Shown here: in pieces, positions 42,009 to 50,275 of the stretch | How the letters are laid out: every line of letters begins with the position of its first letter | Numbering within the stretch: the stretch's first letter is position 1 | Assembly: GCF_009914755.1 (NCBI RefSeq) | Contig: NC_060933.1 | Source of the DNA: the human T2T-CHM13v2.0 reference genome, Homo sapiens | Reading direction: 5' to 3' (one strand) | DNA: 64,000 bases | Translations under genes and position numbers: made by a program | The notes under the pieces: model-generated | What the model was told of the DNA's origin: nothing | What the model saw: only the letters and a program-made list of their open reading frames with translations | The model's database searches: none

Positions 42009-43386
42009 TGAGAGGTGACGGCGTGCTGGCAGTCCTCACAGCCCTCGCTCGCTCTCGGTGCCTCCTCTGCCTGGGCTCCCACTTTGGCGGCACTTGAGGA
42101 GCCCTTCAGCCCACCGCTGCACTGTGGTAGCCCCTTTCTGGGCTGGCCAAGTCTGGAGCCAGCTCCCGCAGCTTGCAGGGAGGTGTGGAGGGAGAGGCGT
42201 GAGCGGGAACCCGGGCTGCGCGAGGCGCTTGCGGGCCAGCTGGAGTTCCGGGTGGGCGTGGGCTTGGCGGGCCCTGCACTCAGATTAGCTGGCCGGCCCT
42301 GCCGCCCCGGGCAATGAGGGGCTTAGCACCCAGGCCAGCGGCTGCAGAGGGTGTACTGGGTCCCCCAGCAGTGCCAGCCCACTGGCGCTGCGCTTGATTT
42401 CTCCCCGGGCCTTAGCTGCCTTCCTGCGGGGCAGAGCTCGGGACCTGCAGTCCGCCATGCCTGGGCCTCCCACCCCTCCCTGGACTCCTGTGCAACCTGA
42501 GCCTCCCCTACCAGCGCCACCCCCTGCTCCACGGAGCCCAGTCCCATCAACCACCCAAGGGCTGAGGAGTGAGGGCACACGGCACGGGACTGGCAGGCAG
42601 CTCCATCTGCAGCCCCGGAGTGGGATCCACGGGGTGAAGCCAGCTGGGCTCCTGAGTCTGGTGGGGACGTGGAGAACCTTTATGTCTAGCTCAGGGATTG
42701 TAAATACACCAATCAGCACCCTGTGTCTAGCTCAGGGTTTGTGAATGCACCAATCGACACTGTATCTAGCTACTCTGGTGGGGCCTTGGAGAACCTTTGT
42801 ATAGACACTCTGTATCTAGCTAATCTGGTGGGGACGTGGAGAACCTTTGTGTCTAGCTTAGGGATTGTAAACGCACCAGTCAGCGCCCTGTCAACACAGA
42901 CCACTGGGCTCTACCAATCAGCAGGATGTGGGTGGGGCCAGAGAAGAGAATAAAAGCAGGCTGCCCCAGCCAGCAGTGGCAACCTGCTGGGGTCCCCTTC
43001 CACACTGTGGAAGCTTGGTTCTTTGCAATAAATCTTGCTGCTGCTCACTCTTTGGGTCTACACTGCCTTTATAAGCTTTAACACTCACCGCAAAGGTCTA
43101 CAGCTTCATTCCTGAAGCCAGCGAGACCACAAGCCCACCGGGAGCAATAAACAACTCCAGACGCGCCGCCTTAAGAGCTGTAACGCTCACCGTGAAGGTC
43201 TGCAGCCTCACTCTTGAGCCAGCGAGACCACGAACCCACCAGAAGGAAGAAACTCCGAGCACATCTGAACATCAGAAGGAACAAACTCCAGACACGCCGC
43301 CTTTAAGAACTGTAACACTCACCGCGAGGGTCCATGGCTTCATTCTTGAAGTCAGTGAGACCAAGAACCCACCAATTCCGGATACA
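42009..43386 (+). mobile_element. ERV9 solo LTR, LTR12C
   Basis: Starts TGAGAGGTGACGGCGTGCTGGCAGTCC, ends CCAATTCCGGATACA; GTGG TSD at 42005-08 and 43387-90; CpG-rich U3 and TCTAGCT/CCAAT repeats. Confidence 0.93.
42700..42985 (+). promoter_or_regulatory. LTR12C core promoter
   Basis: CCAAT at 42709, 42750 and 42914; GGGTGGGG at 42930-37; TATA-like AATAAAA at 42949-55; TSS expected near 42980. Confidence 0.7.
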
Positions 43387-44171
43387 GTGGCAAGCCTTGT
43401 GTTCTCTGACCTGGGGTGCTTGGCCTCACGGATTCCAAGGAATGAAATCTTGGGCCATGTGGTGAGTGTTATAGCTCTACTAGAAGCTGTGGGTCACGGA
43501 AGAGAACTGTGGAACCCAGTGACTAGTGTTTAGCTCAGTTAGGACGAACCCGGGCACTTAGCCGTGCAGGAACAATGGCAAGCCTTTAGTCCAGTCAGGA
43601 GCGGCAATGGGCACCTGGTAAGATCAGGAGCACAGCGGACACCCTACCGGATCCAGAGGGATGGAAGTCAGTGGTGGGTCTGCGACGGCAGCAAACAGCA
43701 GTGGTGGACAATGAGTGAAAGCTCAGCTCGAGCAGTAACAAACAGACCAGAAGAGAGTGCAGTTGTAAGATTTAATAGAGTGGAAACAGAGCTCCCATAC
43801 AAAGATAGGGGACCCAAAGAGGGTAGCCATTGCCGGCTTGAATGCCTGGGTTTATATCCCAATTATTGTCCCTCCCACTGCGCTCTCAGGCAATAGATGA
43901 TTGGCTATTTCTTTACCTCCTGTTTTTGCCTAATTAGCATTTTAGTGAGCTCTCTTTACTACCTGATTCGTCGGGTGTGAGTTTAGTTGCAAGCCTGATG
44001 TTTAAAGGTGGATGCGGTCACCTTCCCAGCTAGGCTTAGGGATTCTTAGTCAGCCTAGGAAATTCAGCTAGTCCTGTCTGTCAGTATGACAAGGACATGT
44101 CAAGGGCGGGCTAGAATCAAGGTCTCCAGTTTCCCAAACTAGTGTTCTTTTCCTACTATTTTATTGCCAGT

Positions 44172-44387
44172 GCTCAAGTGATCATCCCACCTCAGCCTCT
44201 GAGTAGCTGGGACTACTACACTCTGGTAGGTGGTGTGCACCCCTACACCTGGCTAATTTTTGTTTTTTGTATAGATGGGGTCTCTCTATGTTGCCCAGGC
44301 TGTTCTCTAACTCCTGGGCTCAGGCAATTCTCCTGCCTGGGCCTCCCAAGGTGCTGGGTTTACAGGCATGAGCCACTGTGCCCACCC
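44172..44387 (-). mobile_element. Partial AluJ
   Basis: Diverged Alu match. Confidence 0.82.
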
Positions 44388-44546
44388 AATAGTAGTATTT
44401 TTAAGAAGTATATTGTTTCCTTTATCAAGAAACATGTAAACAGTGGTGACCTGTGTTTTTATTTGACCATAGTTTCCACTAAAATGATTAGTTGTGGTAT
44501 ATGTATGGTCAGAATTGTTTGAGTGATTGTTTCTGGGAATTGTGTG

Positions 44547-44984
44547 TGTTAAAGTGAACTAAAGATAGCTTGATAATGACTCCCTATTTCTATATTTGAG
44601 TCCTTGTGGATGAACTGCAACCTAATTTAATAGGTAGACAAGATTGAAAACCTAAGTTTAACTAACAGGAGTATGCGCCTGTAACAATAGCTGAGTCTTG
44701 GCCAATCCCAGCAGCCATACTTCAACCATTCATACACTGCTGAGTGTTCAAACTGTTCAAATAAGGCAAATGCTAACCTGTAACCAATCCAGCTGTTTCT
44801 ATACCTCCCTTCCTATTTCTGTACTGCACTTTACTTTTTTTGTCTATAAATTTGTTCTGACCATGAGGCATGCCTGGAGTCTCTCTGAATCTGCTGTGAT
44901 TCTGGGGGCTGCCTGATTCGTGAATCATTCATTGCTCAATTAAACTCCTTTAAATGTAATTCAGCTGAATTTTTTCTTTTAACA
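44547..44984 (+). mobile_element. MER57A-like ERV1 solo LTR
   Basis: TGTTAAAGTGAACTAA...TCTTTTAACA; TGTG TSD at 44543-46 and 44985-88; CCAAT and ATTAAA present. Confidence 0.75.
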
Positions 44985-45149
44985 TGTGTATTCCATAAAG
45001 AAATGAAAAGAAGGCAAAACTATCATCATTTTGACATTTCTGAAGTTTTCTTAGCAATGGACTCATAAAATACAATATAGCCATTTTTAAGGGAAATTTG
45101 GAAAAATTTATATTTAGGAGAATTTAAAATTTTTCCTTACCATTTTAGG

Positions 45150-48096: not shown

Positions 48097-48599
48097 TCTT
48101 ATTATTCTTTCAATGTCTGTTAGATCTATAGTGCTGTACCATCTTTTATTCCTGATGTTTCAGTGTATGTATTTATGAATTATATTGATCTTTTCAAAGA
48201 GCCTGCGTTTGGCTGCATTGATTTTATTTTTCTGTTTTCAATATCATTGATTCTGTTCTTATTACAGCACCCCTTTGTTTGCTTTGAGTTTAATTTACTG
48301 TTCTATTTTCTAAAGGTAAAAGTTTAGATAACTTTTTTGTTTAATATAATTTGTAATCATGTATTAAAATAAATTTCTCAAGGACTTCTTTAGCTCCGTT
48401 TTGTAAATTTTGATGCATTTTCATTGTCATTCAATCAAAATATTTTCTTTTTGTGTGTGTGAATTCCTCTTTGATCTGTGGGTTATTTAGAAGTGTTTTA
48501 TTTTCTAAATATTTGAGCATTTTCTAGATATTTTCTGTTATTGATTTTTTGTTAATTTCACTGTGGCAAGATGATATATACTTTATATAAATTTCAGGG

Positions 48600-48903
48600 T
48601 TTTTTCTTTTTTTTTTTCATACAAAGTTTCACTCTTGTCGCCCAGGCTGGAGTGCAATGGCACAATCTCAGCTCACTGCAACCTCCGCCTCTTGGGTTCA
48701 AGCAATTCTCCTGCCTCAGCCTCTCAAGTAGCTGAGATTACAGATGTGCTCCCCCATGCCCAGCTAATTTTTTTTGTATTATTAGTAGGGACGGGGTTTC
48801 ACCATGTTGGCCAGGCTAGTCTCAAACTCCTGACCTCAGGTGATCCACCCACCTCGCCCTCCCAAAGTGCTGGGATTATAGGCGTGAGCCACGGCACCCG
48901 GCC
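48600..48903 (-). mobile_element. AluS
   Basis: Alu consensus match. Confidence 0.92.
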
Positions 48904-49485
48904 AGTTTTTTCTTTTTTAAAATATGTTGAGGTTGGTTTCATGGCCCAGAATATGGTCTGTCTTAGAGAATGTTCCATGTATACTTGAAGACAATGTATT
49001 GCTCTTGTATAGAGTGTTCTAAAATTGTCATTTTGGCTGATAACGTTCATACAGAATAAGTACCTCACGATCCTTATAATAATATACTTCCAATTCCTCC
49101 CGGCCAATTTTGTATTATTGTTGTCATACATTTTACTTTTACATATTCTATAAATCCATAATATATTTCCACTATTTTGCCTGTAGACTCTCAATTCTAT
49201 TCTGATGACCTATATACGTCTATTCTTATGTCAGTACTACACAGTCTGGGTTACTGTAGGTTTGTAGTGTGTTTTGAAATCAATACATGTGAATCCTCAC
49301 ATTTTATTGTTCCTTTTCAAGATTGTTTTGGCTATCCTGGGTGCCTAGAATTTCTGTATGAACTTTAGGATTAGCTTGTCAATTTCTGCAAAAAAAGCCA
49401 GCTGGAATTTTAATAGAGAGTTCATTGAGTCTGTAGATCAGTTTGGGGAGTATTGCTATCTTCTCAATATTCTCAATATTAAGTC

Positions 49486-49710
49486 TTTTTTTTTTTTTTT
49501 CCTGAGATGGAGTCCCACTCTTGCCCAGGCTGAAGTACTGTGGCACATCTCCCAGGCATGCCACCACACCCAGCTAAATTTGTGTATTTTTAGTAGAGAT
49601 GGGGTTTCACCATGTTGGCCAGACTGGTCTCAAACTCGTGATCTCAGGTGATCTGCCCGCCTCAGCCTCCCAAACTGGTGGGATTACAGGCCTGAGCACT
49701 ACTCCCGGCC
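49486..49710 (-). mobile_element. AluS with internal deletion
   Basis: Alu match; TSD CAATATTAAGTCTTTT. Confidence 0.87.
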
Positions 49711-50161
49711 TACAATATTAAGTCTTTTCATATAAAATATGGGATGTCTTTCCGTATAGTTAGGTCTTTAGTTTCTTTCAGTGATGTTTTGTAATTTTCA
49801 GTGTATTGGTCTTGCACTTCTTTTATTGGATTTATTCCTTTATTCTTTGGTAGATTGTTTCTTGGTAGTGTATAGAAATACAGTTGAGTTTTGTATATTG
49901 ATCTTGTTTTAACACATTTTTAATGACACTTTAAAAAATTTTAAGAGTGGATAAATATCCAGCAGTTTTATTCTGCAGCTGTAAACTGTTATTTAGAAAT
50001 GTGATATAATTAATTTAGAGTGACATAAGATAAACACCTGAAATTGAAATCTAGGAATTTTGATTTCTTAGGCTTTTTAACTATACATTTAGACACATCT
50101 TATTTTATCAAATAAGTCTGAAATAAACATAAATAAGTTAACATTTTATTTTTTATTTTAG

Positions 50162-50275
50162 TGTTAAATGTTTACAAAAGACAGTGAAGGATTCTTATCA
50201 CATAATGTGCAGGCCATGTGCCTGTGAACTTGAAGTTTGCGCAAAATGTGGAAAGAAAGAAGACATTGTTATTCC
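50162..50275 (+). CDS. C9orf85: C9orf85 coding exon 3 (C-VKCLQKTVKDSYHIMCRPCACELEVCAKCGKKEDIVI+CC)
   Basis: TTTTAG acceptor 50160-61; donor GTGAGT at 50276; 114 nt, phase 2 to 2; in frame with exon 2; three CxxC pairs. Confidence 0.95.

What the first reader, a model, noticed from the sequence alone, without database searches (positions are those of the whole stretch)
42009..50275. Two nested retroviral LTRs together build an in-frame alternative first exon for C9orf85
Seen in sequence: a sense LTR12C sits inside an antisense LTR17. After its TATA-like box (42949) I find no ATG until 43334. From there 128 nt run without a stop across the LTR12C/LTR17 junction (MASFLKSVRPRTHQFRIQWQALCSLTWGAWPHGFQGMKSWAM+TG) to GTG|GTGAGT at 43461/43462. 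This is the same 9-mer and the same phase (2, ending TG) as the genuine exon-2 donor. Splicing to exon 3 (50162) would regenerate TGT (Cys) and the native frame, giving 42+88=130 aa. All three ATGs in the segment (43334, 43442, 43457) are in this frame, and the last has GCCATG context. Established knowledge: LTR12C elements are NF-Y-driven promoters, active in testis and de-repressed by HDAC/DNMT inhibitors, and they splice into host exons. Inference: one ERV supplies the promoter and start, the other the donor, giving a protein without the basic N-terminus and first CxxC, plus an ERV-junction peptide. I have an unverified recollection that C9orf85 was listed among LTR12-driven genes, so the promoter may be known even if this coding structure is not.
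Basis: partly seen in the sequence, partly recalled or inferred. Interest (0 to 1): 0.8.

Follow-up and report, generated by a model that had tools for sequence, protein, structure and literature searches.

The report
Nested LTRs, possible C9orf85 first exon
Two old retrovirus remnants, one inserted inside the other in an intron of the human gene C9orf85, carry every sequence signal needed to start a shorter, in-frame version of the gene's message, but nothing available here shows that cells ever use them.

Summary
A complete solo LTR12C (ERV9) lies at 42009-43386 on the + strand. It is flanked by a 4-base duplication, GTGG, and sits inside an antisense solo HERV-W LTR (LTR17; 41922-42008 plus 43387-44083). 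The promoter core is intact, and the RefSeq start site of the LTR12C-driven SEMA4D transcripts maps to window 42978.

From there, the first ATG is 43334. It is open for 128 nt up to GTG|GTGAGT at 43461/43462. That is the same 9-mer and the same phase 2 as the exon-2 donor.

New points:
- The ATG is private to this copy. None of 25 other LTR12C copies has it.
- The donor is a family trait of antisense LTR17, present in 18 of 20 copies.
- A second in-phase donor lies inside the LTR12C at 43350. RefSeq uses its counterpart in SEMA4D.

No evidence of use was found. None of the 11 RefSeq C9orf85 transcripts starts in the LTR, and no paper links C9orf85 to LTR12. The region is annotated only as an hESC enhancer.

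Verdict: the structure is real and the isoform is plausible but unproven. If real, it is a new member of a known kind.

The parts
41922..42008 (-). Left piece of the antisense solo HERV-W LTR (LTR17). It is the end of that LTR's U5 and contains a 22-bp tandem repeat.
   Evidence: The piece alone gave 477 first-look candidates, 40 scored, at 89-93% identity. In 4 of 4 loci present in both, and in 5 of 5 loci shared, this piece abuts the right piece with a 4-base overlap. TRF row 41949-42010, period 22, 2.8 copies.
42005..42008 (.). Left copy of the 4-base target-site duplication (GTGG) of the LTR12C insertion.
42009..43386 (+). Complete solo LTR12C (ERV9 LTR), 1378 bp, running TG...CA.
   Evidence: It matches more than 25 genomic copies over 1-1378 at 85-91% identity (4485 first-look candidates, 40 scored). 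It is collinear end to end with loci named LTR12C in print (SEMA4D, GBP2, ZNF80, IRGM, HBB-LCR). It matches the LTR12 at ADH1C and the LTR12D at DHRS2 only in part.
42683..42771 (+). U3 enhancer repeats of about 41 nt with CCAAT, GATA-type and G-rich motifs. The U3 CCAAT motifs are at 42709, 42750 and 42914.
   Evidence: TRF period 41, 2.2 copies. Motif positions. Motif definitions from PMC11853044.
42949..42955 (+). AATAAAA, the TATA-like box of the LTR12 promoter.
   Evidence: The same heptamer is present in 22 of 25 other copies. Its role is described in PMC11853044.
42969..42980 (+). GCCAGCAGTGGC start-site motif, at 69.7% of the LTR length. The expected transcription start is about 42978.
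   Evidence: The RefSeq first base of the LTR12C-initiated SEMA4D transcripts aligns to window 42978. The -70..+6 region is 92-97% identical to 25 copies.
43027..43032 (+). The LTR's own polyadenylation hexamer AATAAA, about 50 nt after the start site.
   Evidence: AATAAA is at this column in 20 of 25 other copies.
43146..43151 (+). A second AATAAA, private to this copy.
   Evidence: None of 25 other copies has AATAAA at this column.
43334..43461 (+). Open 128-nt stretch from the first ATG after the start site to the candidate donor. It crosses the LTR12C/LTR17 junction at 43386/43387. Two further in-frame ATGs lie at 43442 and 43457.
   Evidence: None of 25 LTR12C copies has ATG at column 43334 (GCG 17, GTG 3, ACG 2, GCA 2, CCG 1). 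ATG is present at column 43457 in 20 of 20 LTR17 copies and at column 43442 in 17 of 20.
43348..43356 (+). Donor inside the LTR12C, GAA|GTCAGT, with its last exon base at 43350. It lies 17 nt after ATG 43334 and is therefore also in phase 2.
   Evidence: It aligns to the donor of 4 RefSeq SEMA4D transcripts. The 9-mer is kept in 20 of 25 copies. It is weak by U1 pairing, ranking 45 of 62.
43387..44083 (-). Right piece of the antisense solo HERV-W LTR (LTR17). Its first four bases are the right copy of the GTGG duplication.
   Evidence: 796 first-look candidates, 40 scored, at 87-90% identity over 1-697. PMC3031232 names it as an antisense solitary HERV-W LTR in C9orf85 intron 2. That paper's primers hit 43367-43386 (+) and 43438-43457 (-).
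43459..43467 (+). Candidate splice donor GTG|GTGAGT, with its last exon base at 43461. It is supplied by the antisense strand of LTR17.
   Evidence: It is identical to the exon-2 donor 9-mer. It ranks 1 of 62 GT sites in 42978-44100 by U1 duplex energy. The GTGAGT hexamer is present in 18 of 20 LTR17 copies and the exact 9-mer in 6 of 20.
25663..25769 (+). Native C9orf85 exon 2. It encodes Cys45 and Cys48, ends in phase 2, and would be bypassed by the proposed isoform.
   Evidence: RefSeq table.
50162..50275 (+). Native C9orf85 exon 3, the proposed acceptor exon. It has a long pyrimidine tract before the AG, and its first base completes the split codon.
42417..43906 (.). Two adjoining RefSeq functional elements named 'H3K27ac-H3K4me1 hESC enhancer' (42417-43161 and 43162-43906). 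They cover the LTR12C promoter, R-U5 and part of LTR17.
   Evidence: Annotation table.

Best explanation
What is shown:
- A HERV-W provirus inserted antisense into C9orf85 intron 2 and collapsed to a solo LTR17.
- Later an ERV9 provirus integrated into that LTR in the gene's sense orientation, leaving a GTGG duplication. It also collapsed, to a solo LTR12C.

What is inferred:
- This LTR12C is a normally repressed, cryptic alternative promoter.
- When it is de-repressed, RNA polymerase II would start at about 42978 and read through the LTR's own poly(A) signal.
- The first strong donor it meets is GTG|GTGAGT at 43461, on the antisense strand of LTR17. That donor would define a 484-nt first exon, which would splice to exon 3 at 50162.
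- Likely settings, by analogy with other LTR12C copies described in print, are germ line, early embryo or stem cells, infection, and epigenetic-drug exposure.
- Scanning ribosomes would meet no AUG for 356 nt. They would then meet three in-frame AUGs (43334, 43442, 43457).
- The product would have up to 42 LTR-encoded residues in place of residues 1-69 of the 157-aa protein. It would lack the basic N-terminus and Cys45/Cys48. It would keep Cys70 onward, and the native stop lies in the last exon.
- The start codon at 43334 arose after insertion by two CpG transitions. The donor and the two later ATGs were already carried by LTR17.
For: Structure and names:
- Full-length matches.
- Collinearity with five loci named LTR12C in print, against only partial matches to an LTR12 and an LTR12D.
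- The duplication and the abutting LTR17 pieces.
- HERV-W solo LTR named in print, with primers that map to the junction.

Promoter:
- The box, the start-site motif at 69.7% of the LTR length, and CCAAT, GATA-type and G-rich motifs are all present.
- The -70..+6 region is 92-97% identical to 25 copies, including the five published ones.
- The SEMA4D RefSeq start site maps to 42978.
- RefSeq hESC enhancer features lie over the element.

Read-through of the poly(A) signal is feasible. GBP2, ZNF80 and HBB-LCR copies keep AATAAA at the same column and are described as promoters or transcribed.

Donor:
- Rank 1 of 62 by U1 pairing (-11.1 kcal/mol).
- The same 9-mer serves as the gene's own exon-2 donor.
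- No RefSeq exon lies between 30787 and 50162, so the native splicing machinery already selects 50162 across this interval.

Frame. Chance of the first ATG being in phase and open: 0.76%.
Against: - None of the 11 RefSeq C9orf85 transcripts starts in the LTR.
- No paper holds both C9orf85 and LTR12. The gene is not among the 33 loci in Table 1 of the review.
- This copy has a short U3 array. It has 4 CCAAT in all, against 7-13 in the five published loci.
- The family poly(A) signal is intact 50 nt after the start site, and a private second AATAAA follows.
- The first ATG has a pyrimidine at -3.
- The 43-residue ORF has no relative among named public proteins of 24-75 aa. This is a weak negative.
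- The product would keep only half of the first Cys4 cluster, so its stability is doubtful.
Confidence: 0.4

Rival explanations
1. The composite is transcriptionally inert as a promoter at this locus, or acts at most as an enhancer. The in-frame ATG, open stretch and donor are then a coincidence of CpG decay and of family sequence, with no RNA or protein consequence.
For: - No RefSeq transcript starts in the LTR (0 of 11).
- RefSeq annotates the region only as an hESC enhancer.
- Nothing in print links the gene to LTR12.
- Only a small fraction of LTR12 copies is active (PMC5134097).
- This copy has a short CCAAT array.
- The ATG is a product of neutral-looking CpG transitions.
- With thousands of LTR12 copies, a 0.76% configuration is expected at some loci.
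Against: - The core promoter, box and start-site motif are as well kept as in published active copies.
- The enhancer annotation shows the locus is not uniformly closed chromatin in stem cells.
- Drug-induced cryptic starts are reported mainly in LTR12C (PMC11853044 section 7; PMC12065363 passage).
Confidence: 0.35
2. The LTR12C does fire, but its transcripts do not give the proposed 130-aa protein. There are three ways this could happen:
- They end at the LTR's own poly(A) signals.
- They stay unspliced, which leaves the 43-codon ORF stopping at 43463.
- They use the LTR12C's own donor at 43350. The chimeric N-terminus is then only five LTR residues plus a changed junction codon, and LTR17 plays no part.
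For: - AATAAA at 43027 is the family poly(A) signal (20 of 25 copies), and a second one lies at 43146.
- The donor at 43350 is intact here, and its counterpart is used in 4 of the 22 RefSeq SEMA4D transcripts that start in the LTR.
- The unspliced frame stops two codons after the donor.
- A further sense-oriented LTR-like repeat, with a TATAAA and an ATTAAA, lies at 44675-44957.
Against: - By U1 pairing, 43350 ranks 45 of 62 and 43461 ranks 1 of 62.
- The donor most used in SEMA4D (18 of 22 transcripts) has no GT in the window copy.
- Published LTR12C promoters with an intact AATAAA still drive long transcripts.
Confidence: 0.2

Closest known systems
SEMA4D alternative promoter in an LTR12C (chr9; Table 1 of PMC11853044; RefSeq transcripts)
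   Same: Both are sense-oriented solo LTR12C copies inside a gene, 88-90% identical to each other over their full length. They share the same start-site motif. The SEMA4D first exon begins at the column of window 42978 and splices to a downstream host exon.
   Different: - In SEMA4D both donors lie inside the LTR12C U5, and the exon is supported by 22 of 56 RefSeq transcripts.
- In the window the main SEMA4D donor is absent, the strongest donor comes from a second, antisense LTR, and no transcript is annotated.
- The SEMA4D copy lacks the AATAAA that the window copy keeps.
ERV9/LTR12C-driven TP63, GBP2, IRGM, ZNF80 and similar alternative promoters (Table 1 and section 7 of PMC11853044)
   Same: In each case an LTR12C supplies the promoter and a non-coding or partly coding first exon for a host gene. 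Several give new transcript variants or protein isoforms.
   Different: Those cases have experimental support. The window locus has none that I could find. The window ORF also begins inside the LTR, at a copy-specific ATG.
Drug-induced cryptic LTR12C start sites ('TINATs', Brocks et al. 2017)
   Same: They are cryptic starts in LTR12C downstream of NF-Y and Sp1 sites, induced by DNMT and HDAC inhibitors (PMC12065363 passage; PMC11853044 section 7). That such transcripts splice into host exons and can encode truncated or chimeric proteins is recalled. It was not seen here, because the paper is not held.
   Different: Whether this locus is among them is unknown. The main paper and all supplements were out of reach.
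CHM isoform b, made through a splice acceptor inside an LTR12C (PMC11853044 section 10)
   Same: An LTR12C inside a gene acquired a post-insertion sequence change that alters the protein isoform.
   Different: In CHM the change is an acceptor that truncates the protein. Here it is a start codon, combined with a donor from a neighbouring LTR.

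Membership tests
LTR12C (LTR of ERV9/HERV-9, class I) | End-to-end collinearity with copies named LTR12C in print, and a poorer fit to other LTR12 subfamilies | tested here: met
   Query 1-1378 is covered by the SEMA4D, GBP2, ZNF80, IRGM and HBB-LCR copies at 79-92% identity per segment. The ADH1C LTR12 matches only query 625-1240 at 71%. The DHRS2 LTR12D matches only 861-1378 and 31-249 at 79%.
LTR12C (LTR of ERV9/HERV-9, class I) | A 5' extension of about 600 nt, found in LTR12C, D and E (PMC11853044) | tested here: met
   Query 1 to about 650 aligns with all five LTR12C loci and not with the ADH1C LTR12. The feature is described.
LTR12C (LTR of ERV9/HERV-9, class I) | U3 tandem repeats of about 41 nt carrying CCAAT, GATA-type and G-rich motifs | tested here: met
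   TRF period 41, 2.2 copies, at 42683-42771. There are three CCAAT, two GATA-type and two GTGGGGA motifs in U3. The array is short.
LTR12C (LTR of ERV9/HERV-9, class I) | AATAAAA about 30 nt before a start site in GCCAGCAGTGGC, at about 70% of the LTR length | tested here: met
   The box is at 42949-42955 and the motif at 42969-42980, which is 69.7% of 1378. The RefSeq SEMA4D start aligns to 42978.
LTR12C (LTR of ERV9/HERV-9, class I) | 72-bp repeats in U5 | tested here: inconclusive
   TRF reported no array in U5. Off-diagonal blastn hits between query 1055-1233 and 1163-1366 at about 70% suggest diverged repeats.
LTR12C (LTR of ERV9/HERV-9, class I) | TG...CA termini and a short target-site duplication | tested here: met
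   The element starts TG and ends CA, and is flanked by GTGG on both sides. Uninterrupted LTR17 copies show the two flanks overlapping by exactly these 4 bases.
LTR17 (LTR of HERV-W/HERV17) | Named as a HERV-W LTR in print at this locus | tested here: met
   The primer table of PMC3031232 lists an antisense intronic solitary LTR in C9orf85 intron 2. Both primers match the window once each. PMC1794541 equates HERV17/LTR17 with HERV-W.
LTR17 (LTR of HERV-W/HERV17) | Collinear with the genomic family, including another locus named in the same paper | tested here: met
   Matches at 87-90% identity over 1-697. One of them (L047) lies inside UBD, the chr6p22.1 solo LTR of that paper.
LTR17 (LTR of HERV-W/HERV17) | A target-site duplication flanking the LTR | tested here: not met
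   The flanks read ACAT and GTAT, so only 2 of 4 bases agree. This does not bear on the family name. It leaves the mode of origin of this solo LTR open.
LTR12C-initiated chimeric host transcript (alternative promoter) | Sense orientation upstream of a host exon, with an intact core promoter | tested here: met
LTR12C-initiated chimeric host transcript (alternative promoter) | Transcription start observed in the LTR at this locus | not testable with these tools
   No read or CAGE data were available. None of the 11 RefSeq transcripts starts there.
LTR12C-initiated chimeric host transcript (alternative promoter) | An observed splice junction from the LTR-derived exon into a host exon | not testable with these tools
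   Only sequence-based support exists: donor rank, phase, and the analogous donor used in SEMA4D.
C9orf85 protein family (recalled as Pfam DUF2039) | A Pfam domain match, and which part of it exons 3-4 keep | not tested
Only the Cys positions (45, 48, 70, 73, 86, 89, 91, 96, 99, 131) are available. The family name is recalled.

The most novel reading that the evidence does not exclude
A protein isoform limited to apes, whose first coding exon is built wholly from two endogenous retroviruses. An ERV9 LTR gives the promoter, the leader and a start codon born after insertion from two CpG transitions. The antisense strand of an older HERV-W LTR gives the rest of the new N-terminus and the splice donor. 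The isoform would be made in germ line or early embryo, or on epigenetic de-repression. It would replace the basic, Cys45/Cys48-bearing N-terminus of C9orf85 with a retrovirus-junction peptide.
Probability: 0.1. Interest if true: 0.6.

Novelty: new member of a known kind. Interest (0 to 1): 0.3.

Why it matters
If the junction is real, C9orf85 joins the list of genes with an LTR12C alternative promoter. It would be a tidy example of de novo coding sequence assembled from two nested retroviral LTRs, with a start codon that can be dated by comparing ape genomes. The LTR-junction peptide would also be a candidate drug-inducible, non-self-like peptide. If the junction is not real, the locus is an ordinary nested solo-LTR pair with stem-cell enhancer marks. 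Either way the gene itself is uncharacterised, which limits the biological reach.

Tried and rejected
1. Idea: the ATG at 43334 is a family feature. Rejected. None of 25 copies has it.

2. Idea: the ATG-free leader is a special signal. Rejected. P(<=1 ATG) = 0.17 in shuffles, and relatives carry 0-3.

3. Idea: the exact donor 9-mer shared with exon 2 is meaningful. It is a CpG-transition variant found in 6 of 20 LTR17 copies. The GTGAGT hexamer is in 18 of 20. The identity with exon 2 is therefore coincidental.

4. Protein search with the 43-residue ORF found nothing. Only proteins of 24-75 aa were visible to that search, so a 130-aa isoform could not have been found.

5. Literature searches:
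- C9orf85 with LTR12: 0 papers.
- C9orf85 with LTR: 3 papers, of which only the HERV-W primer table is relevant.
- C9orf85 with 'retrovir': 4 papers.
- C9orf85 with 'transposable element': 6 papers.
- None of these concerns an LTR12C promoter. The passages read concern the canonical promoter, an Alu-derived alternative exon and a piRNA target list.
- ChIP-STARR-seq with LTR12: 1 unrelated preprint, seen as a listing only.
- That the RefSeq enhancer features derive from a stem-cell reporter screen is recalled, not shown.

6. Exon use of two other chr9 LTR17 copies and one chr9 LTR12C copy: no RefSeq exon overlaps them. This is uninformative.

7. Idea: the chr10 locus sharing the junction is a recent duplicate. 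Rejected on identity. It remains unexplained (note).

8. Acceptor competition between 43462 and 50161 was not scored.

9. Presence of the insertion and of the ATG at the orthologous site in apes could not be tested, because no primate genomes are available here.

10. Per-element qPCR values of PMC3031232, and the gene lists of the LTR12 papers, sit in supplements that are closed.

Full report
**1. Observation**

- On the + strand, the only ATGs in 42900-43470 are at 42926, 43334, 43442 and 43457. All are in one frame.
- From 43334 the frame is open for 128 nt, up to 43461. It is preceded by an in-frame stop at 43313 and closes at 43463 if left unspliced.
- The nine bases around 43461/43462 equal those around the exon-2 donor at 25769/25770.
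- In the RefSeq Select transcript the coding exons are 102, 107, 114 and 151 nt. Exon 2 therefore ends in phase 2, as does the 128-nt stretch.
- The AATAAAA box (42949) and the AATAAA hexamers (43027, 43146) are present. The last ATG follows GCC.

**2. What the two elements are**

The inner element, 42009-43386:
- It matches more than 25 other places in the genome over its whole 1378 bases at 85-91% identity. The first look gave 4485 candidates, of which 40 were scored.
- I took loci named in Table 1 of the LTR12 review (PMC11853044; section 3 read in full), located them through the gene table and fetched them.
- The window element is collinear end to end with the copies called LTR12C at SEMA4D, GBP2, ZNF80, IRGM and the beta-globin control region.
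- It matches the LTR12 at ADH1C and the LTR12D at DHRS2 only in part and at lower identity.
- It shows the features the review lists (passages). These are the 5' extension of about 600 nt, U3 repeats of about 41 nt with CCAAT, GATA-type and G-rich motifs, AATAAAA, and the GCCAGCAGTGGC start motif at 69.7% of its length.
- The 72-bp U5 repeats were not recovered by TRF. They are suggested only by off-diagonal matches.

The insertion:
- The element starts TG, ends CA, and is flanked by GTGG on both sides.

The outer element:
- Its two pieces are 41922-42008 and 43387-44083. They belong to one family with hundreds of copies (796 and 477 first-look candidates).
- Wherever the same locus appeared in two of my searches, the two pieces abut with exactly a 4-base overlap. 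This held in 4 of 4 loci shared, and in 5 of 5 shared.
- The inner LTR therefore integrated into an intact outer LTR and duplicated GTGG.
- Print names the outer element. The primer table of PMC3031232 lists an antisense 'intronic solitary LTR' of HERV-W in C9orf85 intron 2. For that paper I saw the abstract, the Results section in full and passages of the Methods.
- Its two primers hit the window once each, at 43367-43386 and 43438-43457. The published amplicon therefore lies inside the proposed exon and spans the LTR12C/LTR17 junction.
- That assay is not described as strand-specific, and it also detects intronic pre-mRNA. Its per-element values are in supplements I could not open.
- No clean duplication flanks the outer LTR.
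- No retroviral gene is present. Both elements are solo LTRs.

**3. Age**

- Nesting makes the HERV-W LTR the older of the two.
- I estimated the private branch of the window copy from pairwise distances to 20 relatives, without any consensus.
  - LTR12C: 0.050 substitutions per site over all columns, and 0.027 over columns free of CpG in every copy.
  - LTR17: 0.062 and 0.038.
- With neutral rates of about 1 to 2.2 x 10^-9 per site per year, the LTR12C is roughly 10-25 million years old and the LTR17 older. These rates are recalled and come from no call.
- This agrees with print:
  - ERV9 entered about 30 Mya. It expanded mainly between the gibbon and gorilla splits and stopped about 6 Mya (PMC11853044).
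  - PMC1794541 Table 1 gives HERV9 as 15 Mya and HERV-W as 40-55 Mya (passage).
- Orthologous ape loci could not be examined.

**4. Promoter and start site**

- On chr9, 22 of 56 RefSeq SEMA4D transcripts begin in an LTR12C.
- Aligning that copy with the window copy places their first base at window 42978, inside the start motif.
- The -70..+6 interval, which the review describes as the minimal promoter, is 92-97% identical between the window and 25 other copies. These include the five published ones.
- Against this, the window copy has a short enhancer array. It has 4 CCAAT in all, against 7-13 in the five published loci and 3-6 in its 20 nearest relatives.
- RefSeq places two 'H3K27ac-H3K4me1 hESC enhancer' features over 42417-43906.

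**5. Leader, start codon and donors**

- I compared 25 copies: the 20 best-scoring full-length rows of the 43 non-self rows, plus the 5 named loci.
- None has ATG at the column of 43334. The counts are GCG 17, GTG 3, ACG 2, GCA 2 and CCG 1. The start codon is therefore private to this copy and fits two CpG transitions after insertion.
- AATAAA at 43027 is the family's poly(A) signal (20 of 25). The one at 43146 is private (0 of 25).
- I compared 20 LTR17 copies out of the 39 non-self rows. The antisense strand carries GTGAGT at the donor column in 18, the exact 9-mer in 6, ATG at column 43457 in 20, and ATG at column 43442 in 17. These signals came ready-made with LTR17.
- I ranked the 62 GT dinucleotides between 42978 and 44100 by duplex energy with the 5' end of U1. 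This is a crude measure. The site at 43461 ranks first, at -11.1 kcal/mol. The annotated donors of the gene score -3.1 to -9.6.

**6.

- Both donors of the SEMA4D LTR exon lie inside the LTR12C U5.
- The one used by 18 transcripts has no GT in the window copy.
- The one used by 4 transcripts, GAA|GTCAGT, is intact in the window, with its last exon base at 43350.
- That is 17 nt after ATG 43334, so it is again in phase 2.
- A transcript using it would also be in frame with exon 3, but with only five LTR-encoded residues and a changed junction codon.
- It is weak by U1 pairing (rank 45 of 62).

**7. Consequence for the protein**

- The native protein has 157 residues, with Cys at 45, 48, 70, 73, 86, 89, 91, 96, 99 and 131. 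Cys70 is the codon split between exons 2 and 3.
- The proposed isoform would drop residues 1-69, including Cys45 and Cys48. With the 43461 donor it would regenerate Cys70.
- The native stop lies in the last exon of the Select transcript.
- The first ATG has T at -3 and G at +4. The other two have G at -3. All three are in frame, so leaky scanning would not break the frame.
- I did not write out the chimeric sequence.

**8. Is it used?**

Nothing I could reach says so.
- All 11 RefSeq transcripts of the gene start at the canonical promoter.
- The full-text library holds no paper with both C9orf85 and LTR12. Wider searches found nothing relevant.
- The gene is absent from the review's table and from the main text of PMC5085097.
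- The two papers most likely to list it are not held, and supplements are closed.
- The 43-residue ORF has no relative among named public proteins of 24-75 aa.

**9. Chance**

- For this one exon, the first ATG is in phase and open in 0.76% of 20,000 shuffles.
- The family has 4,000-6,000 members, and this locus was chosen because it looked good. The figure is therefore no evidence of selection.

**10. Verdict**

- The anatomy is real, and it is more precisely defined than in the finding.
- The mechanism proposed is the most economical reading of the signals. It has a close annotated analogue in SEMA4D.
- Its use is unshown.
- I rate the three readings as follows:
  - 0.4: a cryptic LTR12C promoter giving an in-frame 43461-to-50162 transcript under de-repression.
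  - 0.35: inert, or an enhancer only.
  - 0.2: fires, but gives other products.
- If true, it is a new member of a well-known kind, with a neat two-retrovirus twist.

Noticed in passing
L050 (G000:C10:54505000-54512500), about 3128-4179; compare window 43141-44086: A second locus, on chr10, shares the same LTR12C-end/LTR17 junction. It is the only other end-to-end match of window 43320-43470, at 89% identity. There, only the last 246 nt of an LTR12C are present, set between a duplicated 117-nt piece of LTR17 and the rest of that LTR. The flanks are unrelated. The locus is no closer to the window copy than random family members are. Its origin is unexplained. It could be an old ectopic copying event, or a second integration at the same tetranucleotide followed by rearrangement.
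   Followed up: partly
L001 (G000:C9:101642800-101645300), 692 and 740; window 43301 and 43350: Both donors of the RefSeq SEMA4D first exon that starts in an LTR12C lie inside the LTR's U5. The LTR12 review says LTRs do not usually contain splice sites, and that the 12 known ERV9 sense splice events lie outside the LTR (section 10). This annotated case is therefore an exception worth noting.
   Followed up: partly
window 44675-44957: Two adjoining masked repeats (44675-44802 and 44826-44957) read like a further sense-oriented LTR. They contain CCAAT-like, TATAAA and ATTAAA motifs. They lie between the candidate donor and exon 3. The family was not identified.
   Followed up: no
window 41949-42010: A 22-bp tandem repeat of 2.8 copies lies at the U5 end of the antisense LTR17, right up to the LTR12C insertion point. 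The chr10 copy seems to have one unit fewer.
   Followed up: no
window 32147-32794; also -155 to 348: Further RefSeq hESC enhancer features lie in the same gene: one H3K27ac-H3K4me1 element, and one OCT4-NANOG-H3K27ac element.
   Followed up: no
window 61314-64000: A preprint that criticises the CHESS gene set notes that an alternative coding exon of C9orf85 is derived from an Alu element (10.1101/360602, passage). The alternative 3' exon at 61314 onward, with coding part 61314-61530, may be that exon. This was not checked.
   Followed up: no
chr9 positions 84068773-84068903 (window -3227 to -3097), L049: RefSeq already carries an isoform with a different N-terminus. NM_001365055.2 starts in an extra upstream exon that encodes 15 residues before exon 2. 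N-terminal variation of this protein is therefore annotated, though none of it comes from the LTR.
   Followed up: no
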